From the NCBI RefSeq assembly GCF_000619845.1, contig NZ_JHUX01000003.1:180001-212000 (forward strand): a stretch of 32,000 nucleotides of DNA, given 5' to 3'. Position 1 is the stretch's first letter; each line of letters begins with the position of its first letter. Origin of the DNA: Alkanindiges illinoisensis DSM 15370 (GTDB lineage Bacteria > Pseudomonadota > Gammaproteobacteria > Pseudomonadales > Moraxellaceae). The notes under the pieces were generated by a model. It was not told where the DNA came from. It was given only the letters and a program-made list of their open reading frames with translations, and did not search any database. A program made the translations under genes and the position numbers. Shown here one piece after another: positions 19,344 through 32,000 of this stretch.

Positions 19344-20729
19344 ATGAGTATCAATTATATTCAACGGGGTGTTGTTGCAGCAGTATGTTCTATTGTCATT
19401 AGTCAACCCAGCATTGCAGCTGCGCCTGTTGATTTTTCGTCATTAGTTCAGACAGTAAGTCCTGCCGTAGTACGCGTTAATGTATCTAAAAAAATGAGTC
19501 AGGAAGAGTTATTACAACAACAAATGCCTGAATTATTACGCCGTTTTTTCGGTAATAATGTGCAAATCCCAAATCAACGTCTGCCACAGGAACAAAATGC
19601 CTATGGCAGTGCATTTTTTATCACTAAAGATGGTTATTTGCTTACTAACCACCATGTGATTGCCGATGCCAGCAAGGTAACCATAACATTAAATGACCGC
19701 CGTGAAATTGATGCCGAGCTAGTGGGTAGCGATGCACGTACCGATGTTGCTGTGCTGAAAGTAAAAGGCAGTGATTTTCCAGCCTTGCGTATCGGTGATG
19801 CCAACAGTCTGAAAGTGGGTGAACCTGTACTGGCCATTGGCTCACCGTTTGGTTTTGATTATTCTGCTTCCGCAGGTATTGTGAGTGCAAAGTCACGGAC
19901 CATGTCTCGTGAAAACGCAGTGCCATTTATTCAAACTGACGTTGCCCTAAATCCTGGTAACTCTGGTGGCCCATTATTCAACCGGGACGGAGAAGTAATC
20001 GGTATCAACTCACGCATCTTTAGTGGAACCGGCGGCTATATGGGTTTATCGTTTTCTATTCCAATTGATGTTGCTATGGATGTTGCCAATCAGATTATAA
20101 AAACTGGCAAGGTGTCCCGTGCTTATCTGGGTGTAATGTTGCAGGATATCGACCGAAACCTTGCCGAAGCTTATGAGTTGTCACGTCCAGAGGGAGCGCT
20201 GGTAACACAGGTTTCTGACGACACACCAGCCAGCAAGGCAGGTTTAAAGGCAGGGGATATTATCCTGTCCTATAATGGCACTCCAATTAATCGCACTACC
20301 GATCTAATTAACCTGATTAATCGCACCCGGCCAAACCAGACAGCAAGCATGGTCGTACAACGTAATAGCAAGCAGTTATCCTTAAGTGCCACATTGACCA
20401 GTGCGCCTGACGATACACCACCTGCTGAAAGCATGAAAACCGATCAGGGCAAAGGGCCTTCTCTCGGCATGCAATTGCGTGACTTAACACCAGCAGAAAG
20501 CCAGAGTTTAAAAATAAAAGGCGTCATTATTACTGATGTATTGCCGGGTGGTTTGGCCGCTCATGCGGGTTTACTGCCGGGAGATGTGATCACTAGCCTG
20601 AACAATACCCAAACACCAACAGCCACAGCATTACTGACTGCCATTCGTAGTCTTCCTTCAAACCGTGTGGTTCGGGTTGCAATTCAGCGCGATGGCGTTC
20701 CAGCAATTGTTGGGTTAAGGGTTGAATGA
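19344..20729 (+). CDS. degP: Periplasmic serine endoprotease, DegP/DegQ/MucD (HtrA) family, two PDZ domains
   Basis: It has a signal peptide (…ISQPSIAAAP) and the catalytic triad contexts TNHHVI, DVAVLKV and GNSGGPLF. Two PDZ-like segments are present (GVMLQDI...AGLKAGDIILSYNG; GVIITDVLPGGLAAHAGLLPGDVITSLN). The SD is AGGAAGG. Confidence 0.9.
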   Translation: MSINYIQRGVVAAVCSIVISQPSIAAAPVDFSSLVQTVSPAVVRVNVSKKMSQEELLQQQMPELLRRFFGNNVQIPNQRLPQEQNAYGSAFFITKDGYLLTNHHVIADASKVTITLNDRREIDAELVGSDARTDVAVLKVKGSDFPALRIGDANSLKVGEPVLAIGSPFGFDYSASAGIVSAKSRTMSRENAVPFIQTDVALNPGNSGGPLFNRDGEVIGINSRIFSGTGGYMGLSFSIPIDVAMDVANQIIKTGKVSRAYLGVMLQDIDRNLAEAYELSRPEGALVTQVSDDTPASKAGLKAGDIILSYNGTPINRTTDLINLINRTRPNQTASMVVQRNSKQLSLSATLTSAPDDTPPAESMKTDQGKGPSLGMQLRDLTPAESQSLKIKGVIITDVLPGGLAAHAGLLPGDVITSLNNTQTPTATALLTAIRSLPSNRVVRVAIQRDGVPAIVGLRVE

Positions 20730-20740
20730 AAATGATTCAA

Positions 20741-20764
20741 GCGGTATAGCTTTCCATGTACCGC
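20741..20764 (+). terminator. Stem-loop just after degP (weak terminator candidate) at the core/capsule-locus junction
   Basis: GCGGTA-N12-TACCGC starts 12 nt after the degP stop and is followed by TCCTTCAGTTTT. Confidence 0.4.
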
Positions 20765-20884
20765 TCCTTCAGTTTTATAAATTCTATATGGACTAATATA
20801 AAGTTCCTCTTTATAGTCACCGGGAATTATTAATAAAATCGTATTTATACGAATAGCGCTTGCTGACTAATTGATACCGATATT

Positions 20885-21697
20885 ATGGCTGAAGTAAACA
20901 AACCGATATACCGGCTTAAGCCCCGCAGTGGACTGGCTGTACAGTATGCTGCAATCCGGGCCTTATTTTTAAGGGAATTCCAAACTCGATTTGGACATTA
21001 TCGCCTTGGCTATGTATGGGCCATTTTAGAACCAGGTATGCTGGTATTCTTAAAGCTTGTATTGTTTGGCGGTATCATGGAACGTGCCATTCCTTATATG
21101 TCCTATACACTTTTTCTGGTTAATGGTGTACTACCAATTCGTATGTTTATGCGTTCGTCAACGCAATCCCTACATGCAGTATCTAGTAATAGGGGCTTGT
21201 TAAATTATCGTCCTGTAATGCCAGTTGATGCAGTAATTGCCCGTATATCTGTAGAAATGACATTATATTTTGGGGTATACAGCCTTTTTATGGTGGGCTT
21301 ACTCTACTTTGGTGAACCTATTAGTCTAAGTTATTTACCAAATTTATTCGTTTGCTGGTTTTTACTTTATATTTTTACTTTTGGCTTTGCATTAATTATG
21401 TGTTCTCTGGGTGATTTCTCAAAAGAAGTCGCAAAATTTGTTTCTTCATTCTTTATTATATTTTACTTAATGTCTGGCGTAATGTTTTCAATTAATAATG
21501 TGCCAGTGCAATTCCATCCTTATCTATTATGGAACCCGCTATTACATTGTCTAGAATTTATGCGTCATGCCGTATCACCCGAATATCCAGTGACTTACGT
21601 ATCTTTTAATTATCTATTAATAAGCACATTAGTTGTTTTATTTACTGGTCTTTTAATTTATAAATCACGCGAAAGAATAATGTTGACGTCAAAATGA
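20885..21697 (+). CDS. kpsM: Capsule polysaccharide ABC exporter permease KpsM (ABC-2 type)
   Basis: ALFLREFQTRFGHYRLGYVWAILEP, LLNYRPVMPVDAVIARISVEM, YLLWNPLLHCLEFMRHAV and C-terminal YKSRERIMLTSK parallel E. coli KpsM block by block (from memory). It is a six-TM ABC-2 permease, and its stop overlaps the kpsT start (ATGA). Confidence 0.92.
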   Translation: MAEVNKPIYRLKPRSGLAVQYAAIRALFLREFQTRFGHYRLGYVWAILEPGMLVFLKLVLFGGIMERAIPYMSYTLFLVNGVLPIRMFMRSSTQSLHAVSSNRGLLNYRPVMPVDAVIARISVEMTLYFGVYSLFMVGLLYFGEPISLSYLPNLFVCWFLLYIFTFGFALIMCSLGDFSKEVAKFVSSFFIIFYLMSGVMFSINNVPVQFHPYLLWNPLLHCLEFMRHAVSPEYPVTYVSFNYLLISTLVVLFTGLLIYKSRERIMLTSK

Positions 21698-22362
21698 TTA
21701 AACTAGAGAATTTGACAAAATCCTATGCCACAAAAAAAGGCCGACATTTCGTTTTCCGTAATTTAAATATTACTTTGCCTGGTGGAAAAAGCGTTGCCTT
21801 GATTGGTAAAAATGGTGCAGGGAAGAGTACACTACTACGTATTATTGGCGGTATAGATCATGCAGATTCTGGCCAAGTAGTTTCTAATGCTTCTATTTCT
21901 TGGCCAGTAGGGCTAGCAGGTGGTTTCCAGGGTAGCTTAACGGGTCGGCAAAATGTCCGTTTTGTTTCCCGATTATTTGTCCCAGAAAGCAAAGTTGATG
22001 ATATTGTACGCTACGTGGAAGACTTTGCCGAGTTAGGCAAATACTTTGATATGCCAATAAAAATTTATTCATCGGGGATGCGTTCACGTTTGGGGTTTGG
22101 CTTAAGTATGGCATTTGACTTTGATTACTACTTGCTGGATGAGGTCGGCGCTCCTGGTGATGCGCAGTTTAAAGCCAAAAGTAAGGTTTTATTAGATAAT
22201 CTAAAGAAGAACTCTAACATTATTATGGTGTCCCATAATTTAAATGACCTGACAGAGCATTGTGATGTCGCCCTCTTTGTTAAGGAAGGCAATGCTTATT
22301 ATTTTGATAGTGTTGAGGAAGCAGTAGAGGTTTATAAAGAATATGCACTGGCTCAGAAATAA
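21694..22362 (+). CDS. kpsT: Capsule polysaccharide ABC exporter ATPase KpsT
   Basis: MIKLENLTKSY..GRHFVFRNLNI, Walker A GKNGAGKSTLLRIIGGID, ISWPVGLAGGFQGSLTGRQNV, and ELGKYFDMPIKIYSSGMRSRLGFGLSMAFDFDYYLLDE are near-identical runs to E. coli KpsT as I recall it. Confidence 0.93.
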   Translation: MIKLENLTKSYATKKGRHFVFRNLNITLPGGKSVALIGKNGAGKSTLLRIIGGIDHADSGQVVSNASISWPVGLAGGFQGSLTGRQNVRFVSRLFVPESKVDDIVRYVEDFAELGKYFDMPIKIYSSGMRSRLGFGLSMAFDFDYYLLDEVGAPGDAQFKAKSKVLLDNLKKNSNIIMVSHNLNDLTEHCDVALFVKEGNAYYFDSVEEAVEVYKEYALAQK

Positions 22363-23446
22363 TTCTACCTGGTTGAGTTTTATTGCAGTAGTAATCATCC
22401 CATTACTGTTTATAGCTTTCTACTTGTTTACCATAGCTGAAAATCGTTATGTTTCTACTTCTACAGTAGTGGTGAAGCAAATTGGAGATATAGGTGGAAG
22501 CCAAACCAACGGTTTAGGTATCTTATTAGGGGTTAATAATACCAGTAGTGAAGATGCACATTTCCTTAAAGCTTACATTCAATCTCCTGACCTGATTTAT
22601 GCGCTGGATAAACAGTTGAATTTACGTAAAGCATTTGCAGGTAATGGAGGTGATCCGATTTTTGAATTATCTTCTAATGCTTCCAAAGAGGATTTGGTAA
22701 AGTATTTTAATAGACGGGTTACCCTAACGTTTGATGAAAAAAACTCGATGTTGACGGTTAAAACAGAAGGCTTTACACCTCAGTTTGCACTAAAATTGAA
22801 TCAGGCTATTTTAAAACTTAGTGAAAGCTTTATTAACCAGATTTCACAGCGAGTAGCGCGTGATCAGCTGGTGTTTGCGCAGACTCAGTTACAAGAGGCA
22901 GCTAGTAATCTAAAGCAGTCCCGTGAAAATCTGATTAGTTATCAAAACAGGAATCAGATGCTGGATCCGCAAACTACAGCTCTGGCGACTTCAAGATTAG
23001 TAATGCAACTTCAGAGCCAGTTAGCAGATTTGCAAACTCAGGAACGCACGTTACTCAGCTACCTCAATCCAGAGGCATCACAAGTAGTGGCATTACATAG
23101 CCAGATTAATGCTGTACAGCAACAAATAACCCAAGAGCAAGGCAAGCTAACTTCACCGCAGGGCGGTACCAAGTTAAACCGACGCTCTGCTGATTTTGAA
23201 GAATTAAAAGCCAAAGTGGAATTTAGCACGGATCTTTATAAACTTGCACTTGGTTCCCTGGAAAAAGCTCGATTGGAAGCAGTGCGTAAATTAAAGAATG
23301 TCGTTATTATTACAAGTCCCCAATTAGCACAGGATGCGTATTATCCACGCAAGGGCTATATTTTACTCTCAAGTTTCTTAATTTTTACCATTATATTTGG
23401 AATAGGGCAGTTGGTTGCTTCTATTATCCGTGAGCATCGGGAGTAA
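22343..23446 (+). CDS. kpsE: Capsule export inner-membrane/periplasmic adaptor KpsE (PCP-3 family, CtrB/BexC-like)
   Basis: 367 aa. It has an N-terminal TM helix (WLSFIAVVIIPLLFIAFYLF) followed by ENRYVSTSTVVVKQ, a long coiled-coil periplasmic region, and a C-terminal hydrophobic helix. Its position between kpsT (20-nt overlap) and kpsD supports the call. Confidence 0.82.
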   Translation: MHWLRNNSTWLSFIAVVIIPLLFIAFYLFTIAENRYVSTSTVVVKQIGDIGGSQTNGLGILLGVNNTSSEDAHFLKAYIQSPDLIYALDKQLNLRKAFAGNGGDPIFELSSNASKEDLVKYFNRRVTLTFDEKNSMLTVKTEGFTPQFALKLNQAILKLSESFINQISQRVARDQLVFAQTQLQEAASNLKQSRENLISYQNRNQMLDPQTTALATSRLVMQLQSQLADLQTQERTLLSYLNPEASQVVALHSQINAVQQQITQEQGKLTSPQGGTKLNRRSADFEELKAKVEFSTDLYKLALGSLEKARLEAVRKLKNVVIITSPQLAQDAYYPRKGYILLSSFLIFTIIFGIGQLVASIIREHRE

Positions 23447-23452
23447 GTTCTC

Positions 23453-25174
23453 ATGAAGCATTCAAGTTTGTTCCTAGGTATTGCGATTGTTATAAGTACC
23501 TATAGCCATGCTGCAGTTATTGACGATTTGCTTCCAGATACGAATGACTACGTGGCTGGTCCTGCCAATACTACCCGTCAGACCCCATTAAATACTGCAG
23601 AGGCAAATACAGCTCAGGCGCAAGCTGCTGCTATGTTGCAACCAAATGCAATTTTAAATCTTGGTAATTCAAGGCCAGTTTCTTTAAATCAAAATTCGCG
23701 TATGTTTGGTGCCCAGTTATTTAAGGGTGCTTTTGCCAGTAGTTCTGGGAGTACGTTTAATTCAAGCTACATTATTAATCCCGGCGATAATATTCAATTG
23801 CGACTTTGGGGGGCATATCAGTTTGCTGGTACATTAACTGTAGACCCTCAAGGCAATATTTTTGTACCAAACGTTGGGCCGCTTAAAGTTGCCGGGGTCA
23901 GCAATGGTCAGCTACAAAATATAGTTCAGCAAGCAGTACGCCGCGTATATGTATCCAATGTGGGTGTCTATGCTGCTTTGGAGCAAGCCCAACCTGTTAA
24001 GGTATTAGTTACAGGCGCAGTAGTCCAGCCAGGCTCTTATGGTGGCGTTTCAAGCGATTCTATACTGGCATATCTGGACCGTGCAGGTGGAGTTGATCCA
24101 GATCGTGGCAGTTATGTTGATATTCAAATTCTGAGAAATGGAAGATTTGTTCAGCAGGTTAATCTTTATGATTTCCTGCTGGCCGGGCAGTTACAGAATT
24201 TTGCCTTTAAGGATGGTGATGTAATTGTAGTGGCCCCACGTAAGCATACATTTTCTATTAATGGAGAAGTCTACAATGCTTACGATTTTGAGTTTGATGT
24301 ACCCCAACTTACCGTAGGCAAGGCACTATCAGTGGCTCGCCTTAAACCAGGTGCAACACACATTAGTATCAGCCGTCGTCAGGGTGCAGAGTATCGTAGT
24401 GAATACTACAGCATTGCACAAGCGCAAAATGTTGTATTACAGGATGGCGATGTAGTTGCGGTAACAGCAGATCGTTATGCTGGCACTATTCAGGTAAGAG
24501 TAGAGGGAGCCCATCAAGGTGCGCATGCAGTTGTATTGCCTTATGGTGCCACACTAAAACAGGTTATTCAGCAAATTCAGCCTAATGCATTATCGCAAAT
24601 TAATGCGATCCAATTGTTCCGTCCTTCTGTCGCGCAACGTCAAAAGGAAATGCTTAACTTGTCGTTAGATAAGCTTGAGGAGTCGACTTTATCGGTACGT
24701 TCGGCTACCCGTGAAGAGGCAGAACTTCGTTTGAAAGATGCAGAGTTAATTAAACAGTTTATTACTAAAGCACGTGTAGTACAGCCTAAAGGTCAGGTTA
24801 TCTTAAATAAAAATAATTGGGATAATATTATTTTAGAGCAAGGTGATGTGTTAAATATTCCTGAAAAAACCTCTGTTACCATGGTTCATGGTGAAGTTAT
24901 GTTCCCAAATGCTCTAAGCTGGCAGCCTGATCAACGAATTGATTATTATATCAAACAGGTGGGTGGTTATACACAGAAATCGAATAAATCCAAGTTAATA
25001 GTTGTTCATCAAAATGGTGAAGCGGAACAGGTCAGTAATAGTTATATTATCAAACAAGGCGATGAAATTATGGTCTTGCCAAAAGTTTCTACAAAAAGTG
25101 TTGAAATTGGTAGAGGTTTAACGCAGATTATTTATCAAATCGCTATTGCGGCTAAAGTTGTGTTTGATCTTTAA
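23453..25174 (+). CDS. kpsD: Capsule export periplasmic/outer-membrane protein KpsD
   Basis: There is a signal peptide, then SRMFGAQLFKGAF, LRLWGAYQFAGTLTVDPQGNIFVPNVGPLKVAGVSNGQL, RYAGTIQVRVEGAHQGAHAVVLPYG and RPSVAQRQKEMLNLSLDKLEE. These are long runs shared with E. coli KpsD as I recall it. The length (573 aa) fits KpsD rather than the shorter CtrA/Wza. Confidence 0.92.
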   Translation: MKHSSLFLGIAIVISTYSHAAVIDDLLPDTNDYVAGPANTTRQTPLNTAEANTAQAQAAAMLQPNAILNLGNSRPVSLNQNSRMFGAQLFKGAFASSSGSTFNSSYIINPGDNIQLRLWGAYQFAGTLTVDPQGNIFVPNVGPLKVAGVSNGQLQNIVQQAVRRVYVSNVGVYAALEQAQPVKVLVTGAVVQPGSYGGVSSDSILAYLDRAGGVDPDRGSYVDIQILRNGRFVQQVNLYDFLLAGQLQNFAFKDGDVIVVAPRKHTFSINGEVYNAYDFEFDVPQLTVGKALSVARLKPGATHISISRRQGAEYRSEYYSIAQAQNVVLQDGDVVAVTADRYAGTIQVRVEGAHQGAHAVVLPYGATLKQVIQQIQPNALSQINAIQLFRPSVAQRQKEMLNLSLDKLEESTLSVRSATREEAELRLKDAELIKQFITKARVVQPKGQVILNKNNWDNIILEQGDVLNIPEKTSVTMVHGEVMFPNALSWQPDQRIDYYIKQVGGYTQKSNKSKLIVVHQNGEAEQVSNSYIIKQGDEIMVLPKVSTKSVEIGRGLTQIIYQIAIAAKVVFDL

Positions 25175-25184
25175 AATCCTTAAA

Positions 25185-25212
25185 GGTGTACCATGTCGTT
25201 GTATGGTATACC
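25185..25212 (+). terminator. Stem-loop 10 nt after kpsD (possible terminator or attenuator)
   Basis: GGTGTACCAT-N8-ATGGTATACC forms 10 bp including one G.U pair. There is no clean U-tract (…TGACTTTG), so termination activity is uncertain. Confidence 0.35.
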
Positions 25213-25376
25213 TGACTTTGAATCTAATCTAGGATTTTTAATCTTAAAGGTAATGTTTAACACTGGATCAATAGTACTTATTGCTTAAATAATTCTATTA
25301 TTATAGTTTTACGTTCAAATGATTGTTAAGTTCATAACCGAAATTTTACAATAGTTTAAATCAATTTATGTAGGGC

Positions 25377-28274
25377 ATGATGGAAGAGCAAACCTTAATT
25401 CTAAATGGGCTAGAAATTAAATATAAATTTAAAGAAAAAAAGTATGATTGTGAACATTTAATTATTATATTTTCAGGATTTGCGCCTTATAAAGAGTTTA
25501 CTTATGATTTTGAAAACTCATTGGCTGTAAGCCGTGCTAATGTATTATGGATCAAAGACGATTTTAAAGAACATGCTTGTTATTATTTATGCCAAGATAT
25601 GGATTTTTACATCGAAGAAATAATTTATCAATTTATTGAACAAAAAATAAAAGAGCTGAATCTTAACCAAAAAAATGTAACGTTATTAGGATTGTCAAAG
25701 GGAGGAAGTGCAGCTCTGTATTATGGTTTGAAGTATAATTTTTCTAATATTGTATGTGCAGTACCTCAAATAAAAATTGCTTCTTATGTGTTAGGAAAAA
25801 CAAAAGTCACTGCAAAAAAAGCATCAGTAGTTGCAAAGCATATGCTAGGAGAGCATCCTCAGGCACACCATATAGTACAGCTAGATAATCTGATCCCAAG
25901 TCTTATAAAAGAAGATCAACAACTTAATAAGAATATTTATTTATTAACAGGCAAGGCTGATCCGCAATATTATACTGAAATAGAACCTATATTACCCCTA
26001 TTACGTAAATACCAAAACTTTAATTTGATTGTTTCTGAGTCTGTTTATGCAAAAAACCATGAACATATTATAAGACATAATAGTCCTTTACTAATACATC
26101 TATTAGGTTTATTAAGCGATAATTTATCTGTTTATCTAAACAACCAAAAATTTGAAAATAATCAGTATAGTATTAAAGATAAATCAGCAGAACCTATAGT
26201 TACTGTTGAAGCATTATCTTTAAAAGAGGAATGCTTATTTATAGAGGGTGTGGCATTATTAAGAGGTCTAGAAGCTGCTAATTGGGAAGATGTAAAATAT
26301 ACATTATATTTAAAAAATGCCCAACGTAATTATTCTTTTTATTTAAATAAAGGTAATCGGCCTTATTTAACACAAAAGTATTTTAATGGTGACCAAGTTA
26401 TATACGATAAAGCATATTACAAAACAAATAATGGAATTCATCTTATTAATATAGTAGAGCCAGGTATATATCATTTTAATCTTGAAGTTTGCTGTCAAGG
26501 TATTACTAAAAATGTAAAGCTTTGCACTAGCCAGCCCCTGAGTCTAACAGCTACCTCATGTGGTCATGTTTACCAAATTAGTAGTAAATCTAATGGTATT
26601 ACACTTAATGTTAAAGCTATTAGTAATTGGTCATTAAGTCAGCAATTAGATATTTTTCAGAAACAATTTAAAAAATCTGGCAAAATATGGCTATATAAAG
26701 ATAATATTTTGGCTATGCATTTTGAGAATGAAATATCCACTTTGATTATTGATGTAGTAGAAGGGAATGAAACTATTGAGATACGTTATTTCGATAAATT
26801 CCGTATTTTTACACAAGAAATTCAAGAAATTATAAATAATTTATCTGGTTCTTCACAATTAAAAAATCAGAAAGTTATAGTAAAAGTTCAACGAAAATCT
26901 ATATCAAACATTTATAGTTATTTAAATGATAATATAGGAGAGTTTTATAGGCAGTTTACTCAAAAGTTTAATGATTATTCTTACCATGAAAAGTTTACTC
27001 TAGGCAATAAAGCCTTGACGAGTAAAATCATTGCTAAACGTAGCAAGGGAGAAAGAATCTCTGTTGGTTTACTCGTTAATGATCGAACAAAATGGAATTA
27101 TGAAAGTCTGTATTATAGCTTAAATCAGAGTCAAGAGTTTAGTGTAAGGATTCTGCTAGCTCGATTACCTAGCTTTGATGATCAAGATTATGAATTAAAC
27201 AAAGAATTTTTTAGACAGATTGATAATAATATTTTATACATCAGTGAAATGGATCAGAAGGGCCGTATAAATATAATTGCTGATCAATTTGATATAATGT
27301 TTTACCAGCAACCATGGGGAATGCGATATTGGGTTAAATCACTACATACTAAAATCCTTGGATGTTTTACTCATTATGGTTATTTAATATTCGAAGATAA
27401 ACTTGATTACTGTATTGATGATTTTCATCCATTCATTTGGCGCTTCTTCGCACAAAATGAATTGCATAAACTTAATCACATTAAATTTACCCCAGCAGCT
27501 TCAGAGAGAATTCGTGTTTCTGGCTATGCCAAAATGGATGCTTATCAAGTATCAGTCCAGTCTTCTTTAGATTCAATTTGGCCGACAAATGTTGAGTCAG
27601 CTCATAGTCGAATTATTTACGCTCCCCATCATTCTGTAGGACCTTCTTTATTAAAGATAGGGACTTTTGATTGGAATCATCAAAAAATTCAGGATTTAAT
27701 GCTAAAGTATCTAGATACAGCATGGGTATATAAACCTCATGGGCGTTTGCGTTATATGGTGGCTGAACATAATATTATGACTGATGAGCAGTATCAAAAT
27801 TATCTGGGACGCTGGGCGACAAATCATAGTATTATTTACGATAATGGGAATTACTTTGATCTATTTAAAACTTCTGACGTATTAATAACTGATAGCAGTT
27901 CGTTTTTGGCGGAGTATTTCCCTACTGGTAAACCAATTATTTGGCTAGTATCTGCACGCAGTAAAATGAAGTTTAATGATTTTGGTAAACGTCTTACAGA
28001 TGGATTTTACAAAGTACATAACCTTGAAGAGCTTGAAAGCGTCTTTAACCAAGTAGTTATCCAAAAATATGATCCATTATTAAGTGTAAGGCAACAGATC
28101 ATCCAAGAATGTTTTGCTTTTAAAGCAAGTAGTGCTGAGAAGATTCATCAGTTTCTATTGGAAGAATTTCCTAAGTCTATTGTTTCACCACCAGCTAAAC
28201 CCTTGCATAGAACAACTACTGGCTCTAACTTGATAAAACTGTTTAGGAGAGCAAAAAAGTATTTAAGTAAATAG
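25377..28274 (+). CDS. 965-aa multidomain capsule 'region 2' enzyme: N-terminal alpha/beta-hydrolase-fold module + central beta-rich module + C-terminal TagF-like (CDP-alditol phosphotransferase-type, GT-B) module; candidate capsule polymerase
   Basis: aa 1-250: HLIIIFSGF..., nucleophile elbow LLGLSKGGSAALYYG (Ser107, codon 25695-25697), LLTGKADPQYY (Asp195), and NHEHIIRH (His228/230/234). aa ~270-420: a pattern of the type L.IEGVALLRG...YTLYLKN...FYL, as found in the N-terminal beta-sandwich of TagF-family enzymes. aa ~555-950: RISVGLLVND..., IIYAPHHS (Y748-S753), VYKPHGRL, and DVLITDSSSFLAEYFPTGKPIIWL (D839), resembling the YAPT(W/F)R ... LITDYSS...KPII motifs of TagF/TarF-type enzymes. A basic amphipathic C-terminal tail is present. 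The assignment is by motif only. Confidence 0.6.
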   Translation: MMEEQTLILNGLEIKYKFKEKKYDCEHLIIIFSGFAPYKEFTYDFENSLAVSRANVLWIKDDFKEHACYYLCQDMDFYIEEIIYQFIEQKIKELNLNQKNVTLLGLSKGGSAALYYGLKYNFSNIVCAVPQIKIASYVLGKTKVTAKKASVVAKHMLGEHPQAHHIVQLDNLIPSLIKEDQQLNKNIYLLTGKADPQYYTEIEPILPLLRKYQNFNLIVSESVYAKNHEHIIRHNSPLLIHLLGLLSDNLSVYLNNQKFENNQYSIKDKSAEPIVTVEALSLKEECLFIEGVALLRGLEAANWEDVKYTLYLKNAQRNYSFYLNKGNRPYLTQKYFNGDQVIYDKAYYKTNNGIHLINIVEPGIYHFNLEVCCQGITKNVKLCTSQPLSLTATSCGHVYQISSKSNGITLNVKAISNWSLSQQLDIFQKQFKKSGKIWLYKDNILAMHFENEISTLIIDVVEGNETIEIRYFDKFRIFTQEIQEIINNLSGSSQLKNQKVIVKVQRKSISNIYSYLNDNIGEFYRQFTQKFNDYSYHEKFTLGNKALTSKIIAKRSKGERISVGLLVNDRTKWNYESLYYSLNQSQEFSVRILLARLPSFDDQDYELNKEFFRQIDNNILYISEMDQKGRINIIADQFDIMFYQQPWGMRYWVKSLHTKILGCFTHYGYLIFEDKLDYCIDDFHPFIWRFFAQNELHKLNHIKFTPAASERIRVSGYAKMDAYQVSVQSSLDSIWPTNVESAHSRIIYAPHHSVGPSLLKIGTFDWNHQKIQDLMLKYLDTAWVYKPHGRLRYMVAEHNIMTDEQYQNYLGRWATNHSIIYDNGNYFDLFKTSDVLITDSSSFLAEYFPTGKPIIWLVSARSKMKFNDFGKRLTDGFYKVHNLEELESVFNQVVIQKYDPLLSVRQQIIQECFAFKASSAEKIHQFLLEEFPKSIVSPPAKPLHRTTTGSNLIKLFRRAKKYLSK

Positions 28275-28297
28275 CCAGTGAATCTTTTTTATCTATG

Positions 28298-28349
28298 AAA
28301 TCTATATCTGTACAGTTCTAATTTTTGAAAATTAGAACTGTATAGATTT
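28298..28349 (+). terminator. Long imperfect AT-rich hairpin 24 nt after the 965-aa ORF (probable terminator)
   Basis: The inner stem pairs CAGTTCTAATTTT (28313-28325) with AAAATTAGAACTG (28328-28340). The outer stem pairs AAATCTATA (28298-28306) with TATAGATTT (28341-28349). A 6-nt bulge separates the two on the left arm, giving 22 bp in total. Confidence 0.45.
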
Positions 28350-28498
28350 AATGCAAATTAACATTTATGGAATTTCTGTGGCCTTGAATAATTGGCTAAA
28401 AATTCTATCTTTCTAATTTTGTAAAAAATATTGCAACCAGATTGCAATTTTACTCTATATTAATAGTATAGATTCTTTTGTTAATCTTTAGGCCTAAA

Positions 28499-29707
28499 AT
28501 GGATCAGCTGATAAAATATCTTCAAGAAATGCTTGCAATTGTAGGCTATAAAAATGTTCATATATGGAAATACCAGCAAGATATAGCAGTAATTGAGTGC
28601 ATTGACTTTGGTGTGGCTTTTGATATCAAGCAATCGCATGGCTACTATGCTATTGATTTACTAGCCCGTAACGCTAATACACGTAAAATTTTAGCGCTTC
28701 TCTACAATGATTTTTTAACTAAACCTAAATCAAGAATTTATAAAGTTCCAGTACATAATGAATTTGCTTTAATAGCTGATTTTATAAAAAGCGAATTTTT
28801 AAAATTAGAAAATTTATTCGTAATTAAGAAAAACTGTTATGGTAGTCCTAAAATATATATGCTTGATGAGAGTAATTTTTTGCAAAAACAGGAAGCTATC
28901 AAAGTCTTCTGGTGGGATGGAGTTGCTAATTTTGGAGATATTTTAGGGCCTTGGCTCATTAGTATGATGACTAAAAGGCCTATAGTCAATGTTCGTGGAA
29001 GTAAGTCATCTAATGCTATCTTTTCAATCGGTTCAATTATTAATATGATGAATACAGATCATATTAACCCTAGTATTTGGGGAAGCGGGCTTATCAATAC
29101 AAATAGTATTCCTAAGTTAGGAGAAAAACTTGCAAAGATTAATATTAAAAAGATTACGGCAGTAAGAGGTAGGCATACTCACCATGAACTTACGCAAAAG
29201 CTGGGATATGTTATACCTGAGGTTTTCGGTGACCCTGCTTTATTACTTCCAGAATACTTTACACCTGACATTATTAAAAAAGATAGAGGTGTATTAGTTC
29301 CTCATTGGAGTCAATTTAAATTATTTGAGAATCTTTCAATAGATAATATTCAATTAGTAAATGTAGGAGATGATGCCCATAAGGTTGTATCAGATATTGC
29401 TAATGCTAAATTCTGTATTGCTACTTCTTTACATGGAATTATAGTTGCACAAGCCTACAATGTACCTTGGGTATGGTTGAATATTAAAGATAAACCCCTT
29501 CATTCAGGCAAGCACTTCAAATTTCATGATTTCTTTTCCATTTTAGAAAATGATAAAATTGTTAGGCACGATTTGAATATCTCCGATATCAGTCAGGAAA
29601 ATATTAGCCAACTAATACATAAAGCCTATCTGCCAAAATTTAACCAATATTTTAATAAAGAATCTTTAATAGAAGCTTTCTATCAATTGGAAATAAAAAA
29701 TGGGTAG
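28499..29707 (+). CDS. Polysaccharide pyruvyl transferase family protein (CsaB/WcaK-like) with an extra ~140-aa N-terminal domain
   Basis: KVFWWDGVANFGDILGPWLI (the N.GD motif opening the family domain) and CIATSLHGIIVAQAYNVPWVWL (the RLHG-type C-terminal motif) are present. The first ATG is 28499 (MDQLIKYL...); the track start 28478 is a TTG. No family was recognised for residues 1-~140. Confidence 0.7.
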   Translation: MDQLIKYLQEMLAIVGYKNVHIWKYQQDIAVIECIDFGVAFDIKQSHGYYAIDLLARNANTRKILALLYNDFLTKPKSRIYKVPVHNEFALIADFIKSEFLKLENLFVIKKNCYGSPKIYMLDESNFLQKQEAIKVFWWDGVANFGDILGPWLISMMTKRPIVNVRGSKSSNAIFSIGSIINMMNTDHINPSIWGSGLINTNSIPKLGEKLAKINIKKITAVRGRHTHHELTQKLGYVIPEVFGDPALLLPEYFTPDIIKKDRGVLVPHWSQFKLFENLSIDNIQLVNVGDDAHKVVSDIANAKFCIATSLHGIIVAQAYNVPWVWLNIKDKPLHSGKHFKFHDFFSILENDKIVRHDLNISDISQENISQLIHKAYLPKFNQYFNKESLIEAFYQLEIKNG

Positions 29708-29851
29708 TTTGCATTTGTTAAAATTAACACTTTTTCAAATAAAACAAAAAGCTTTATAGTGTCTACACATTTGTTATGATAGGGACTATCAGTTAAATAC
29801 GTGTGATAGCGAAACTAGTTGGTATTATATGTTTTAATTAAAATAGTTAAC

Positions 29852-31219
29852 ATGAAAATTGGAGAAATGGGCTCTGCAATGAAAAATTCTTGGTCGATAG
29901 TAGTAACTGCAAAAGCATTACCAGAAAATATTAATATTTTTATAGAACACCATTTAAAGCTTAATCCTAAAGAAATTTTTTTATTTCTAGACGCTCCTGA
30001 TGACTTTGATAATTCACAAGATTTAGTCAAAGCTGATAGTTTAAGAATAATTGAATGTACGCCAGAATTTTGGAAATCAAGGCCACATTTTCATATGCTT
30101 AGATATGAAAAAGGAGTGCGTCCTGAATTAGTAGAATATCGTCAATACCATAATATGCTACATGCTCATTCAATTAGTGACGCCGAGTGGCTGCTTATGA
30201 TGGATATAGATGAGCTATTATATACAAGATCAGACGTAGGAAATTTGCTAAATAAGTATCCTGATAATATTTTTTCAATTTTATTGATGCCAATTGAAGC
30301 GGTTTACAAGGATGATCCTCCAGTTAGTTTTAAAGAAGTATTTGATACAGACTTTTTTAAAACAAGAAAAAAAGTAAACTATGAGTATTGGAATAAAATA
30401 TATGACAGGGAAGGAATCTATCATAAATCTGGTTTTTTCGGCCATGTTACCGGGAAATCTTTTACTCGGGTAAATAAGGAAATAATGCAACCATCTTGTC
30501 ATTTAAATAAACCACTTGACCGTGATTTAGGTTATGCATTTATTGAAGAAAATATGAATATTATGCATTTTGAATCTCAAACACTTGAGATGTTTTCTCA
30601 AAAAATTATTAATAGGTCTAGTAAAAAGTTTAATGTTGGTTTTCTAGATGAGATAAGTGTCAAACGTACCAATAATATAATTAGTATCTATAAAGAAAAA
30701 GGTGAATTAGCCTTATTAGATATATATTTATATATGCATGTTTTTTCAAAAGAAAAAATTAATAAGATTTTAAATGATGGATATATATTAGAAATTACGG
30801 ACAAGACTACTTCAGACTATGTATTTGATCATAAAATAGTTTCTTTCCACCATAGTGTTTTAGTTTATGATCATTCAAAAGATATTGTAATTGCTTTAAA
30901 AGAAGAGGATATTTCTTCCTCTATACATTCAATTGTGAAAATTGCAATAAATAAAGAACGTGTAGATATAGAATCAAAGGCTTTTTTATATTTTGAATAT
31001 AATTATAAAATAGAATATTTATGTGTGGATAGAGATGGAAAAATTATAATATTTAGATCAAATAAAGCCCAATTATTAAATTATTTCACTGATAACAATT
31101 ATTTTTCATTATCAATTGATAATAAATATATAACAGTGAAGCCTAGTTGTGAGGTTTTATTTAAAGCAGAAAAAATTAATAAATGGGAGCAACTATATAA
31201 ATTTAATTTTAGAAGTTAA
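29852..31219 (+). CDS. Family-2-type glycosyltransferase (Glyco_tranf_2_4-like N-terminal domain) with a ~190-aa C-terminal domain of unknown function
   Basis: WSIVVTAKALPENINIFIEHHLKLNPKEIFLFLDAPDD and the DxD-type motif WLLMMDIDELLY fit a GT-A fold. The start is ambiguous: ATG 29852, 29867 or 29879, and the track start 29819 is a TTG. The C-terminal third (from ~aa 280) has no motif I recognise. Confidence 0.6.
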   Translation: MKIGEMGSAMKNSWSIVVTAKALPENINIFIEHHLKLNPKEIFLFLDAPDDFDNSQDLVKADSLRIIECTPEFWKSRPHFHMLRYEKGVRPELVEYRQYHNMLHAHSISDAEWLLMMDIDELLYTRSDVGNLLNKYPDNIFSILLMPIEAVYKDDPPVSFKEVFDTDFFKTRKKVNYEYWNKIYDREGIYHKSGFFGHVTGKSFTRVNKEIMQPSCHLNKPLDRDLGYAFIEENMNIMHFESQTLEMFSQKIINRSSKKFNVGFLDEISVKRTNNIISIYKEKGELALLDIYLYMHVFSKEKINKILNDGYILEITDKTTSDYVFDHKIVSFHHSVLVYDHSKDIVIALKEEDISSSIHSIVKIAINKERVDIESKAFLYFEYNYKIEYLCVDRDGKIIIFRSNKAQLLNYFTDNNYFSLSIDNKYITVKPSCEVLFKAEKINKWEQLYKFNFRS

Positions 31220-31255
31220 GTAGGTTAAGATAATTAATTAAAAAATAATTTTCCT

Positions 31256-31293
31256 TAGGGTAATAGTAAAATTTAGAAGTATTTATTACCCTA
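31256..31293 (+). other. Stem-loop after the glycosyltransferase gene
   Basis: TAGGGTAATA (31256-31265) pairs with TATTACCCTA (31284-31293), a perfect 10-bp inverted repeat with an 18-nt loop, 37 nt after the stop codon. Confidence 0.35.
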
Positions 31294-31527
31294 GAATATA
31301 TTATTATATAATGATATCGATACCTAATATAATTCACTTACTTTATATCTAAAAATATATGTTTTATCCCTCATGAGAGGGAAATATTATTGTAAATAGC
31401 TAAAATTACAAAGTTTTTATGTATAAATTTTCATTACTATATTGTAATCTTTCTACTACTAATCTTAAGACAAAATTGTTTTACAATTAACTTTTAAAAT
31501 TTTGCAATCGTAGCGGGAATTAGTTGT

Positions 31528-32000
31528 ATGAGTAAAATCACAAAATTAATTAACACACCTAACATTTTTTTTAAAGATATGGCTTACAAGACTCTGACCC
31601 AGCGTTTGCCTATGTTATTAGACAATTTAGGCAATAGACTAGAAGTTTTCGACACAAGCCCGAGCCCCGCAAAAAAAGTACCTGTGACTAAGCGACCTGT
31701 TTCTTCAACTAAAGCAGATAATTCAGTAGCAGCAAAAACTATAATACCTTCCTCGATAAATTTGAGTCATATTAATCTCCTGTCACCTATTTATCATATT
31801 ATACATACCGGAGAAGGTATGACTCATGGTCCATCACATTTAAGTTTATGGATTCCAACTTTTTTGACCACACAAATATCTTTTGCTGTCATCGTTCGTA
31901 ACGTAGATTTATATAATTGGGTGGTTGAAAAATATCCTTTTATTAATGTTGCCTATGCTAAAACACCTATAGATATTGAAAATCTATTAAACAATATGGC
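31528..32000 (+). CDS. Capsule-cassette ORF, 5' part only (runs off the window); function unassigned
   Basis: ATG 31528 opens a frame that stays open to the window end (157 codons) and is missing from the ORF track because it is incomplete. Hand translation: MSKITKLINTPNIFFKDMAYKTL...VPVTKRPVSSTKADNS...PIYHIIHTGEGMTHGPSHLSLWIPTFLTTQISFAVIVRNVDLYNWVVEKYPFINVAYAKTP. The N-terminal KL..P..FFKD motif resembles the N-termini of several capsule biosynthesis enzymes as I remember them. Confidence 0.55.
   Translation, partial: MSKITKLINTPNIFFKDMAYKTLTQRLPMLLDNLGNRLEVFDTSPSPAKKVPVTKRPVSSTKADNSVAAKTIIPSSINLSHINLLSPIYHIIHTGEGMTHGPSHLSLWIPTFLTTQISFAVIVRNVDLYNWVVEKYPFINVAYAKTPIDIENLLNNM

What the first reader, a model, noticed from the sequence alone, without database searches (positions are those of the whole stretch)
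20730..32000. ABC-transporter-dependent (kps/group 2-type) capsule locus inserted next to degP/mucD in an Acinetobacter-like chromosome
The sequence shows kpsM-kpsT-kpsE-kpsD translationally coupled (an ATGA overlap, a 20-nt overlap, a 6-nt gap), followed by an AT-rich biosynthetic cassette. By established knowledge, characterised Acinetobacter capsules are Wzx/Wzy-dependent K loci (between fkpA and lldP). Kps-type export is typical of E. coli group 2, Neisseria, Haemophilus, Pasteurellaceae and Campylobacter. The M-T-E-D order followed by the variable region matches the Campylobacter arrangement rather than E. coli region 1/3. kpsC/kpsS (beta-Kdo linker transferases) and kpsF/kdsB are not in the window. 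A complete system requires kpsC/kpsS, so they are predicted downstream of the cassette.
Basis: partly seen in the sequence, partly recalled or inferred. Interest (0 to 1): 0.62.

Follow-up and report, generated by a model that had tools for sequence, protein, structure and literature searches.

The report
Complete Kps-type capsule locus, Alkanindiges
This is a complete, intact gene cluster for an ABC-transporter-exported ("group 2"-type) capsule, most likely a teichoic-acid-like ribitol-phosphate polymer. It lies at a chromosomal site shared by a whole group of Acinetobacter relatives, so it is a new example of a well-known system and not a surprising insertion.

Summary
kpsM, kpsT, kpsE and kpsD lie at 20885-25174 with the stated overlaps, followed by a 27-35% GC cassette. 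The predicted kpsC and kpsS exist 4.6 kb past the window end, so the system is complete: a 19.2-kb locus between degP and a thioesterase gene.

The host is Alkanindiges (Moraxellaceae), not Acinetobacter. The locus is not a strain-specific island. kpsM follows degP directly in the three other Alkanindiges assemblies examined, in a fourth sampled genome of the same genus and in five neighbouring genera. Acinetobacter shows the empty site (nadB-degP-thioesterase-lepA).

Kps loci are common in the family. KpsC-like genes occur in 144 of 397 sampled genomes, including 22 of 121 Acinetobacter species. The genome also keeps a Wzx/Wzc-type locus.

The central cassette is unique to this genome among those sampled. 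It holds three TagF-like phosphotransferase modules, a Bcs1-like CDP-ribitol synthase, a GT-A glycosyltransferase, a pyruvyltransferase-like protein and a CsaC-like O-acetyltransferase domain. This predicts a wall-teichoic-acid-like capsule.

The export genes diverge much more from those of relatives than the flanks do, which fits whole-locus allele exchange.

Verdict: new member of a known kind, of modest interest. An earlier scan note describes a similar locus in another genome.

The parts
19344..20729 (+). degP/mucD-type Do-family serine protease; conserved left flank of the capsule locus
   Evidence: TIGR02037 at 2e-135. Nucleotide identity to Alkanindiges hydrocarboniclasticus H1 is 84% up to position 20725, then falls to 68%.
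20730..20884 (+). 155-bp degP-kpsM spacer: left boundary of the locus, with a hairpin plus T-run at 20740-20765 and sigma-70-like hexamers at 20789-20839
   Evidence: The site counts are not above the shuffled expectation, so these are only candidates. Sequence read.
20885..21697 (+). kpsM, ABC-2 permease of the capsule exporter (270 aa)
   Evidence: NF050053 KpsM at 4e-41 covering 4-252 of 257 positions; PF01061.
21694..22362 (+). kpsT, ATPase of the exporter (222 aa); ATGA overlap with kpsM
   Evidence: Matches PDB 8tsi_A (KpsT of the KpsMT-KpsE complex) at 1e-80. Overlap shown.
22343..23446 (+). kpsE, inner-membrane/periplasmic PCP-3 adaptor (367 aa); 20-nt overlap with kpsT
   Evidence: TIGR01010 BexC/CtrB/KpsE at 2e-93. 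Matches PDB 8tsh_E at 8e-79.
23453..25174 (+). kpsD, outer-membrane polysaccharide export (OPX) protein (573 aa) with a signal peptide
   Evidence: PF02563 and PF22461. N-terminus MKHSSLFLGIAIVISTYSHA. 63-78% identical to proteins named polysialic acid transporter or polysaccharide export protein in Alkanindiges and Acinetobacter species.
25377..28274 (+). 965-aa fusion protein. The N module (about residues 1-412) has a CsaC/SacC-like alpha/beta-hydrolase O-acetyltransferase domain and an XcbB/CpsF signature. The C module (about residues 545-931) is a TagF-like GT-B phosphotransferase. It is the candidate capsule polymerase/modifier.
   Evidence: - Matches SacC 6yuo at 2e-13 over residues 23-204 and NF033892 at 3e-11.
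- The two modules occur as separate proteins of about 410-445 aa elsewhere.
- In the C-module family, 32 of 37 members hit PF04464, and hhalign to the 454-aa TagF-like family gives 97% probability.
- The AF2 model has pLDDT 92 and a GT-B fold, but the top fold hits are UDP-GlcNAc 2-epimerases.
28478..29707 (+). 409-aa polysaccharide pyruvyl-transferase-like protein
   Evidence: PF04230 at 2e-12 over residues 142-336. No PDB sequence match.
29819..31219 (+). 466-aa GT-A (Glyco_tranf_2_4) glycosyltransferase with an unassigned C-terminal half
   Evidence: PF13704 at 2e-7 over residues 38-138. No PDB sequence match.
31528..32000 (+). 5' part of a 454-aa TagF/TagB-like CDP-polyol phosphotransferase gene that runs to extrapolated position 32892.

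Beyond the window, in extrapolated window coordinates:
- Bcs1-like CDP-ribitol synthase, 32934-34307
- Second TagF-like paralogue (366/377 aa), 34352-35485
- Secreted beta-propeller gene on the minus strand, 35520-36563
- kpsC, 36604-38658
- kpsS, 38686-39948
- Flanking thioesterase, 39949-40353
   Evidence: - ORFs and domains.
- 454-aa protein: PF04464, about 900 relatives, and invariant HGDS, PTWEG, K-x-HP and DIS motifs. AF2 pLDDT is 82 with Bcs3 8a0c as the top fold hit, and TagF and TarL also among the hits.
- Bcs1-like protein: NF001183 at 5e-49, TarI 4jis at 6e-34, plus an SDR domain.
- KpsC: 6mgc at 8e-79 and 6mgd at 3e-65.
- KpsS: NF050054 at 1e-111.

Best explanation
The finding is the first 11 kb of a complete 19.2-kb ABC-transporter-dependent (group-2-like) capsule locus of an Alkanindiges species.

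Inferred pathway, by homology to the E. coli, A. pleuropneumoniae and H. influenzae systems:
1. KpsS and the two-module KpsC build the poly-beta-Kdo glycolipid anchor on phosphatidylglycerol. They use CMP-Kdo from the housekeeping kdsD and kdsB genes.
2. The cassette enzymes build the serotype polymer on this anchor. A Bcs1-like bifunctional enzyme makes CDP-ribitol. Three TagF-like phosphotransferase modules (the 454-aa protein, the 366-aa protein and the C module of the 965-aa protein) prime and polymerise polyol-phosphate. A GT-A enzyme probably adds a sugar. A CsaC-like domain and a pyruvyltransferase-like protein decorate the chain.
3. KpsMT-KpsE-KpsD exports the lipid-anchored chain to the cell surface.

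Evolution: the locus sits in an old, conserved slot between degP and the thioesterase/lepA genes. This slot is shared by several genera related to Alkanindiges. The centre of the locus, and in this genome the export genes too, have been exchanged by recombination.

Shown here: gene content, completeness, synteny and divergence pattern. Inferred: expression, polymer chemistry and the division of labour among the TagF-like modules.
For: Core parts, all intact and full length:
- KpsM, KpsE and KpsS by NCBIfam.
- KpsT, KpsE and KpsC by PDB sequence matches at 1e-80, 8e-79, and 8e-79 plus 3e-65.
- KpsD by Pfam, with a signal peptide.
- kdsB and kdsD present as single copies.

Cassette:
- IspD+SDR fusion with a ribitol-5-P cytidylyltransferase signature.
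- No TagD-type glycerol-3-P cytidylyltransferase in the 100%-complete genome.
- TagF-like status of the 454-aa protein, of the 366-aa paralogue (hhalign 99.6%) and of the 965-aa C module.
- CsaC-like domain, pyruvyltransferase-like protein and GT-A.

Mechanistic frame: Litschko et al. 2024 (PMC11666461) and Bcs3 (PMC10299916).

Conserved site:
- nadB-degP-kpsMTED in the H1, WGS2144 and MAG Alkanindiges assemblies, and kpsM-kpsT directly after degP in the sampled genome G031 of the same genus.
- kpsM directly after degP in five further genera, and the empty site in Acinetobacter.
- The full nadB-degP-kpsMTED-region2-kpsCS-lepA arrangement in a 62%-GC genus, with no GC dip.

Cassette swapping: region 2 of the two sister assemblies where it could be read is unrelated.

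Divergence: flanks are 92-93% identical to H1 at the amino-acid level, but KpsM/T/E/D are 63/77/67/78%. The break falls at the degP stop codon.
Against:
- KpsM, KpsE and KpsS score below NCBIfam's equivalog cut-offs, although the alignments are full length.
- Foldseek ranks UDP-GlcNAc 2-epimerases above TagF for the 965-aa C module, and generic GT-B folds score about as well as TagF for the 454-aa model (TM about 0.5). The TagF assignment therefore rests on sequence profiles and motifs.
- The ribitol-5-P cytidylyltransferase model is only just above its cut-off (166.9 against 166 bits), so another CDP-polyol is possible.
- No dedicated sugar-nucleotide genes point to the GT-A donor.
- The promoter and terminator scans do not exceed chance.
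Confidence: 0.8

Rival explanations
1. The locus is a recently acquired genomic island specific to this strain, perhaps brought in with the neighbouring integrase-bearing element.
For: - The locus is 34.7% GC against 46.3% for the genome, and region 2 is 31.8%.
- An integrase gene lies 280 bp beyond the thioesterase.
- The export genes are more diverged from congeners than the flanks are.
Against: - The site is occupied by kpsM in four other Alkanindiges genomes and five other genera, and in full in a 62%-GC genus.
- The integrase belongs to a separate 40,044-bp prophage inserted into the 5' end of lepA. It has its own terminase, portal and tape-measure genes, and it is absent from Alkanindiges sp. 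WGS2144, where the thioesterase abuts lepA.
- No tRNA gene lies in the downstream stretch scanned, which covers the right boundary of the locus.
- What may be recent is replacement of alleles within an old locus, not insertion of the locus itself.
Confidence: 0.07
2. The exporter and anchor genes are functional, but the main polymer is a glycan made by the GT-A and other enzymes. The TagF-like proteins would make only a short polyol-phosphate linker, acting as transition transferases like CpsA/CpsC of A. pleuropneumoniae, and not the bulk polymer.
For: - The 454-aa and 366-aa families sit on the same contigs in many taxa, including Rahnella and Acinetobacter (matching contig lengths). This is as expected for a conserved accessory pair.
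- CpsA is a PF04464 enzyme that primes on poly-Kdo (PMC11666461).
Against: - A third TagF-like module is fused into the largest cassette protein.
- The only precursor pathway encoded in the cassette is for a CDP-polyol.
- Only one recognisable glycosyltransferase is present, and it has no processive-polymerase signature.
- No LicD-type CpsC homologue was detected.
Confidence: 0.2
3. The locus is silent or decaying, and the Wzx/Wzc-type locus on contig 6 makes the only capsule.
For: - A complete-looking wza-wzb-wzc-ugd-wzx glycosyltransferase cluster exists on contig 6 (C6:141348 onward).
- No expression data were obtainable.
Against: - All 14 genes of the kps locus are open and full length against their family models, with no stops.
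- The export genes are translationally coupled.
- The locus is retained across genera.
- A 98%-identical KpsD and a 94%-identical 965-aa protein exist in other samples.
- There are no long homopolymer tracts that would suggest frequent switching off.
Confidence: 0.08

Closest known systems
Campylobacter jejuni capsule locus (kpsMTEDF, variable region, kpsCS)
   Same: The conserved genes have the same order and orientation, flanking a hypervariable, low-GC biosynthetic centre. The class of system is the same: ABC transporter-dependent with a Kdo-glycolipid anchor. The arrangement is taken from established knowledge and PMC13724630.
   Different: There is no kpsF in this locus. The cassette has no heptose or MeOPN genes and no homopolymer phase-variation tracts. 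The chromosomal site differs.
Haemophilus influenzae type b cap locus (bexDCBA, bcs1-4, hcsAB) and E. coli K18/K22/K100 ribosyl-ribitol-phosphate capsules
   Same: Both have a Bcs1-like fused cytidylyltransferase/SDR CDP-ribitol synthase. Both have TagF-like ribitol-phosphate transferase modules; the Bcs3 CroT structure 8a0c is the top fold hit for the 454-aa protein. Both have KpsC/KpsS homologues. Sources: PMC10299916 and PMC13171606.
   Different: No single Bcs3-like multi-enzyme with ribofuranosyltransferase, phosphatase and SH3b domains is present. Instead there are three separate TagF-like modules, a GT-A, a pyruvyltransferase-like protein and a CsaC-like domain. Sequence identity to the solved enzymes is only about 13-15%.
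Actinobacillus pleuropneumoniae serotype 3/7 capsule pathway (CpsA/CpsC transition transferases plus the CpsD TagF-like polymerase)
   Same: Both make a wall-teichoic-acid-like capsule with PF04464 enzymes acting on the poly-Kdo anchor. Both combine small TagB/TagF-like proteins with a large multi-domain enzyme (PMC11666461).
   Different: This genome has no CDP-glycerol synthase (no TagD). No LicD-type CpsC and no TPR domain were detected. The donor is predicted to be CDP-ribitol, not CDP-glycerol.
Moraxella bovis and Acinetobacter species kps loci (same family)
   Same: They carry homologous kpsMTED and kpsCS genes. KpsD is 63-75% identical in named Acinetobacter species. The three Acinetobacter genomes examined have the same kpsMTED-cassette-kpsCS layout. 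The M. bovis capsule has been demonstrated experimentally (PMC12797221).
   Different: In Moraxella, kpsMTEDCS is contiguous and the biosynthesis genes lie elsewhere. In the Acinetobacter genomes examined, the locus is not next to degP and the degP-thioesterase-lepA site is empty. The cassettes are unrelated to this one.

Membership tests
ABC-transporter-dependent (group 2/3-like, Kps) capsule system | KpsM ABC-2 permease plus KpsT ATPase | tested here: met
   NF050053 at 4e-41, full length. KpsT matches 8tsi_A at 1e-80. The two genes overlap by ATGA.
ABC-transporter-dependent (group 2/3-like, Kps) capsule system | KpsE (PCP-3) and KpsD (OPX) envelope-spanning partners | tested here: met
   TIGR01010 at 2e-93, and 8tsh_E at 8e-79. 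KpsD has Poly_export and SLBB domains and a signal peptide.
ABC-transporter-dependent (group 2/3-like, Kps) capsule system | KpsS and dual-module KpsC beta-Kdo transferases that build the glycolipid anchor | tested here: met
   The PF05159 search of the genome finds kpsC (684 aa, two modules) and kpsS (420 aa) at C3:216604-219948. KpsS matches NF050054 at 1e-111. KpsC matches 6mgc at 8e-79 and 6mgd at 3e-65.
ABC-transporter-dependent (group 2/3-like, Kps) capsule system | CMP-Kdo supply (KdsD/KpsF, KdsB/KpsU) | tested here: met
   Single housekeeping copies lie at C3:779414-780223 (TIGR00393, 351.6 bits) and C3:897099-897812 (TIGR00466, 272.2 bits). There are no capsule-dedicated paralogues.
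ABC-transporter-dependent (group 2/3-like, Kps) capsule system | A lipid-anchored polymer is actually produced and displayed on the surface | not testable with these tools
   This needs mutants, staining and chemistry.
E. coli group 2 locus organisation (region 1 kpsFEDUCS, region 2, region 3 kpsMT) | kpsMT and kpsFEDUCS lie on opposite sides of region 2 | tested here: not met
   The order here is kpsMTED, region 2, kpsCS, with no kpsF or kpsU in the locus. This is the Campylobacter-like layout.
TagF-like (PF04464) capsule polymerases / WTA-like capsules | GT-B phosphotransferase domain with the conserved His-containing motifs | tested here: met
   - 454-aa protein: PF04464 at 22.7 bits (cut-off 22.1), with invariant H188-G-D-S, P-T-W-E-G and K296-x-H298-P motifs in 30 relatives. 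Fold hits include Bcs3, TagF and TarL.
- 366-aa paralogue: hhalign 99.6%.
- 965-aa C module: 32 of 37 relatives hit PF04464, and hhalign gives 97%.
TagF-like (PF04464) capsule polymerases / WTA-like capsules | Structural match specifically to TagF-type enzymes and not to generic GT-B folds | tested here: inconclusive
   For the 454-aa model, Bcs3 is the top hit, but UDP-GlcNAc 2-epimerase and MshA score alike (TM about 0.5). For the 965-aa C module, the top 50 hits are nearly all UDP-sugar 2-epimerases and include no TagF-type enzyme.
TagF-like (PF04464) capsule polymerases / WTA-like capsules | A CDP-polyol donor pathway is encoded alongside | tested here: met
   The 457-aa IspD+SDR fusion matches NF001183 ribitol-5-P cytidylyltransferase at 166.9 bits (cut-off 166) and TarI 4jis at 6e-34. 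No TagD was found in the genome.
Recently acquired genomic island | Presence/absence polymorphism among close relatives, and its own mobility genes | tested here: not met
   The site is occupied in four other Alkanindiges genomes and five other genera. The adjacent integrase belongs to a separate prophage in lepA. Only the compositional deviation fits an island.

The most novel reading that the evidence does not exclude
The cassette may encode a structurally new group-2 capsule: a ribitol-phosphate, wall-teichoic-acid-like polymer that is glycosylated, O-acetylated and pyruvylated. It would be assembled by an unusual set of three TagF-like modules, one of them fused to a CsaC-like O-acetyltransferase in an architecture seen only twice among 1.84 billion representative proteins.

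The degP-lepA slot would also be a previously undescribed capsule-switching hotspot that has persisted across a clade of Moraxellaceae genera. The widely co-occurring 454-aa and 366-aa TagF-like pair could be a second, LicD-free type of transition-transferase pair.
Probability: 0.3. Interest if true: 0.5.

Novelty: new member of a known kind. Interest (0 to 1): 0.3.

Why it matters
Capsule research in Moraxellaceae has centred on the Wzy-dependent K loci of Acinetobacter baumannii.

This locus, and the survey around it, show that Kps-type capsules are widespread in the family. They appear in about a third of the sampled species-level genomes, including about one in six sampled Acinetobacter species. 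A clade around Alkanindiges keeps such a locus at one fixed site, with freely exchanged cassettes.

For glycobiology, the cassette offers new TagF-like enzymes, a CDP-ribitol synthase and a fused O-acetyltransferase-phosphotransferase. These could extend the enzymatic toolbox for making teichoic-acid-like polymers.

For Alkanindiges, an alkane degrader, a charged polyol-phosphate capsule could affect cell-surface hydrophobicity and phage susceptibility.

None of this changes current concepts. It is a solid annotation and a modest lead.

Tried and rejected
- **PDB sequence searches:** the 454-aa, 377-aa, 466-aa and 409-aa proteins found nothing. A profile of the 965-aa C-module family also found nothing meaningful.
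- **Fold search of the 965-aa C module:** it returned UDP-GlcNAc 2-epimerases and not TagF. The TagF-like call therefore rests on Pfam hits in relatives and on hhalign.
- **Promoter and terminator scans:** they did not exceed the shuffled expectation. No operon boundaries are claimed.
- **Literature searches:** searches for Alkanindiges capsule and Acinetobacter kps genes found no paper describing these loci. The supplements of Rendueles et al. 2017 did not resolve it either.
- **Integrase as part of the capsule locus:** considered and rejected. It belongs to a 40-kb prophage in lepA.
- **Beta-propeller gene as a conserved kps component:** considered and rejected. Its homologues in Acinetobacter lie far from their kps loci.
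- **CpsC/LicD-type transition transferase for the 377-aa protein:** considered and rejected. It is a TagF-like paralogue.
- **tRNA or direct repeats at the locus boundaries:** no tRNA was found in the downstream stretch scanned. Repeats at the boundaries were not searched for, because the insertion is ancient.
- **G031 lacks a KpsC match:** its contig ends about 1.5 kb after kpsD, so this is an assembly break and not evidence of absence.

Full report
**1. Observation**

The window has four co-directional ORFs at 20885-21697, 21694-22362, 22343-23446 and 23453-25174.

They are KpsM, KpsT, KpsE and KpsD:
- KpsM matches NF050053 at 4e-41 over 4-252 of 257 positions.
- KpsE matches TIGR01010 at 2e-93 over 7-361 of 362 positions.
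- KpsD carries Poly_export and SLBB domains.
- KpsT and KpsE match the chains of the solved KpsMT-KpsE complex at 1e-80 and 8e-79.
- KpsD has a signal peptide.

The scores for KpsM, KpsE and KpsS are below NCBIfam's equivalog cut-offs. The proteins are therefore diverged orthologues and not close copies of the E. coli proteins.

Downstream, GC falls to 27-34%, against a genome mean of 46.3%.

**2. Completeness**

A search of the whole genome with Pfam Capsule_synth found a 684-aa two-module KpsC and a 420-aa KpsS at C3:216604-219948. This is 4.6 kb beyond the window end and on the same strand. KpsS matches NF050054 at 1e-111. The two halves of KpsC match the solved N- and C-terminal beta-Kdo transferase modules at 8e-79 and 3e-65.

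The genome has one kdsD/kpsF and one kdsB, both elsewhere on the contig. CMP-Kdo is therefore available, but there are no capsule-dedicated paralogues.

All genes of the locus are open and full length. There are no long homopolymer tracts.

**3. Full anatomy**

Positions past 32000 are extrapolated window coordinates.

| Gene or feature | Coordinates |
|---|---|
| degP | ends at 20729 |
| spacer | 155 bp |
| kpsM-kpsT-kpsE-kpsD | 20885-25174 |
| 965-aa protein | 25377-28274 |
| 409-aa pyruvyltransferase-like | 28478-29707 |
| 466-aa GT-A | 29819-31219 |
| 454-aa TagF-like | 31528-32892 |
| 457-aa IspD+SDR | 32934-34307 |
| 366/377-aa TagF-like paralogue | 34352-35485 |
| 347-aa secreted beta-propeller, opposite strand | 35520-36563 |
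| kpsC | 36604-38658 |
| kpsS | 38686-39948 |
| YbgC-like thioesterase | starts at 39949, directly after kpsS |

The locus is 19.2 kb at 34.7% GC. Region 2 is 11.4 kb at 31.8% GC.

**4. Host and context**

- The closest KpsE relatives in the species-level genome collection are Alkanindiges hydrocarboniclasticus H1, Alkanindiges sp. WGS2144 and a MAG, at 66-67% identity.
- Flanking NadB and DegP are 92-93% identical to those of H1.
- Handle G044 of the window's own genus has the contig length of the WGS2144 chromosome. The genus is therefore Alkanindiges, not Acinetobacter.
- Genus g20 is Acinetobacter. The 3,571,042-bp contig of G178 is that of A. shaoyimingii.

**5. Is it an insertion?**

- All three other Alkanindiges assemblies show nadB-degP-kpsMTED at the same place. 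In WGS2144 the locus ends kpsS-thioesterase-lepA. A fourth genome of the genus, G031, also has kpsM-kpsT directly after degP.
- I sampled 59 Moraxellaceae genomes with DegP and read 1.5 kb on either side.
- kpsM directly follows degP in Alkanindiges and in five other genera (g3, g10, g12, g14, g16).
- Two Acinetobacter genomes show nadB-degP-thioesterase-lepA. Genera g7, g19 and g21 show nadB-degP-lepA. These are the empty site.
- In G013 (genus g14, about 62% GC) the entire nadB-degP-kpsMTED-6 kb-kpsCS-lepA arrangement is present with no GC dip.

The locus is therefore an old resident of this slot in a clade of genera. It is not an island of this strain.

The integrase 280 bp past the thioesterase belongs to a separate 40,044-bp prophage (C3:220491-260534). 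The prophage has terminase, portal, tape-measure and tail genes. It is inserted into the first codons of lepA and is absent from WGS2144.

**6. Exchange within the locus**

Region 2 differs completely between congeners:
- WGS2144 has UDP-GlcNAc 2-epimerase, UDP-ManNAc dehydrogenase and GT-B-like enzymes.
- The MAG has a Stealth phosphotransferase and a 1265-aa GT2+TagF enzyme.
- No cassette protein of this genome has a tblastn match in those loci.

This genome's export genes are also outliers. The flanks are closest to H1 (92-93% at the amino-acid level), but KpsM/T/E/D are only 63/77/67/78% identical to H1. The other three genomes are closer to one another, up to 85-91%.

Nucleotide identity to H1 is 84% up to the degP stop codon and 68% from kpsM onward. 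This fits replacement of the whole locus by recombination from a more distant lineage, with one crossover at the end of degP. Accelerated divergence is the alternative, and I did not test between the two.

**7. How common are such loci?**

- KpsC-like genes were found in 144 of 397 sampled Moraxellaceae genomes.
- In Acinetobacter the count is 22 of 121, of which about 20 are full length. In Alkanindiges it is 3 of 4; the fourth genome's contig ends just after kpsD.
- Genus g13 scores 32 of 42. Its contiguous kpsMTEDCS layout matches Moraxella bovis Epp63 (PMC12797221).
- Many matches in g18, which is probably Psychrobacter, cover only half of KpsC and were not resolved.
- Three complete Acinetobacter genomes carry kpsMTED-cassette-kpsCS at other sites.
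- Proteins 63-75% identical to this KpsD are annotated in A. faecalis, A. ursingii, A. lanii, A. shaoyimingii, A. terrestris and others.
- I found no paper that describes these Acinetobacter or Alkanindiges loci.

**8. Second capsule system**

The genome also has wza-wzb-wzc followed by a UDP-sugar dehydrogenase, an epimerase, a Wzx flippase, a pyruvyltransferase, glycosyltransferases, an aminotransferase and a PglF-like dehydratase. This cluster starts at C6:141348. It is a Wzx/Wzc-type locus, so the two systems coexist.

**9. What the cassette predicts**

- **CDP-ribitol synthase.** The 457-aa protein fuses an IspD-type cytidylyltransferase to an SDR reductase. It matches the ribitol-5-P cytidylyltransferase model NF001183 at 5e-49 and TarI 4jis at 6e-34. 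This is the architecture of H. influenzae Bcs1 CDP-ribitol synthase (the comparison with Bcs1 rests on established knowledge and PMC10299916). No TagD-type CDP-glycerol synthase was found in the genome.
- **454-aa TagF-like protein.** It belongs to a family of about 900 proteins annotated as CDP-glycerol glycerophosphotransferases, from Neisseria, Bibersteinia, Aeromonas, E. coli, Acinetobacter and others. The HGDS, PTWEG, K-x-HP and DIS motifs are invariant. The AF2 model has pLDDT 82. Its top fold hit is the Hib polymerase Bcs3, followed by TagF and TarL, although generic GT-B enzymes score similarly.
- **366-aa paralogue.** It has no Pfam hit of its own, but it is a paralogue with the same motifs (hhalign 99.6%). 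The two families repeatedly sit on the same contigs.
- **965-aa fusion.** The N module has a CsaC/SacC-like O-acetyltransferase domain (6yuo at 2e-13) and an XcbB/CpsF signature. In the C-module family, 32 of 37 members hit PF04464, and the family aligns to the 454-aa family at 97% probability. Each module occurs as a stand-alone protein in other taxa. The full fusion was seen only twice among 1.84 billion representatives, and in none of 396 other family genomes. The fold search for this module returned UDP-GlcNAc 2-epimerases, so the structural evidence says only 'GT-B'.

Together with the GT-A and the pyruvyltransferase-like protein, the most economical reading follows the framework of Litschko et al. 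2024. The product would be a wall-teichoic-acid-like (glycosyl-)ribitol-phosphate capsule. It would be primed on poly-Kdo by one small TagF-like enzyme, extended by the others, O-acetylated and perhaps pyruvylated.

I put this chemistry at about 55%. I put the existence of a functional Kps capsule system at about 80%.

**10. Verdict**

The premise that made the finding look surprising, Kps export in an Acinetobacter-like genome, does not hold, because such loci are frequent in the family and fixed at this site in the genus.

This is a new, uncharacterised member of a known kind. It has a cassette worth biochemical follow-up and a tidy example of a conserved capsule-switching slot.

An earlier scan note (e1-2738967) describes what appears to be the same kind of locus, between a protease and lepA, in another genome. 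I used it only as a lead to look for lepA.

Noticed in passing
beyond the window: G000:C3:220491-260534 (L008:10491 onward, L087, L088): A 40,044-bp prophage sits right after the capsule locus. It carries a P4-type integrase, ERF recombinase, HNH, terminase, portal, tape-measure and J-like tail protein genes. It is inserted into the first codons of lepA, and an imperfect repeat of the codons for IRNFSIIAHI lies at both ends. The intact lepA now begins with phage-side sequence. The element is absent from Alkanindiges sp. WGS2144.
   Followed up: partly
L008:5520-6563, minus strand (extrapolated window 35520-36563): A 347-aa protein with a signal peptide and a five-bladed beta-propeller of the phage receptor-binding-platform type (PF21311 at 9e-17; phrog_287 minor tail protein at 7e-18) is encoded on the opposite strand inside region 2. 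Homologues at 42-47% identity occur in 5 of 121 Acinetobacter genomes, far from their kps loci. Whether it binds or trims the polyol-phosphate polymer is unknown.
   Followed up: partly
G000:C3:953712-956162, minus strand (L044:2712-5162): This is a second Capsule_synth-domain protein: 816 aa, with GT2 (Glyco_tranf_2_2 at 5e-48) fused to a KpsC/KpsS-like domain (7e-12). It lies next to a pyruvyltransferase-like gene. It may be a separate ulosonic-acid or Kdo-transferase glycan module.
   Followed up: no
G000:C6:141348-162600 (L042, L043): A Wzx/Wzc-type polysaccharide locus is present: wza-wzb-wzc, UDP-sugar dehydrogenase, epimerase, wzx, pyruvyltransferase, GT4, DegT aminotransferase and a PglF-like dehydratase. 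A DUF1016/YhcG nuclease gene is inserted in it.
   Followed up: partly
window 20725-25174 versus L009 (A. hydrocarboniclasticus H1): Nucleotide identity drops from 84% to 68% exactly at the degP stop codon. This genome's KpsM/T/E/D are more distant from every congener than the congeners are from each other, although the flanks are closest to H1. This suggests the conserved export genes were replaced along with the cassette.
   Followed up: partly
L008:1528-2892 and L008:4352-5485; hit lists: The 454-aa and 366-aa TagF-like families repeatedly sit on the same contigs in unrelated taxa, judged by matching contig lengths (for example in Rahnella and Acinetobacter). This suggests a conserved two-enzyme unit, possibly a transition-transferase pair distinct from CpsA/CpsC.
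   Followed up: partly
L086 (G013:C143:29500-49499): A Moraxellaceae genus with about 62% GC carries the same nadB-degP-kpsMTED-cassette-kpsCS-lepA arrangement without the thioesterase gene. The kps genes there are at host GC, which indicates long residence at this site.
   Followed up: partly
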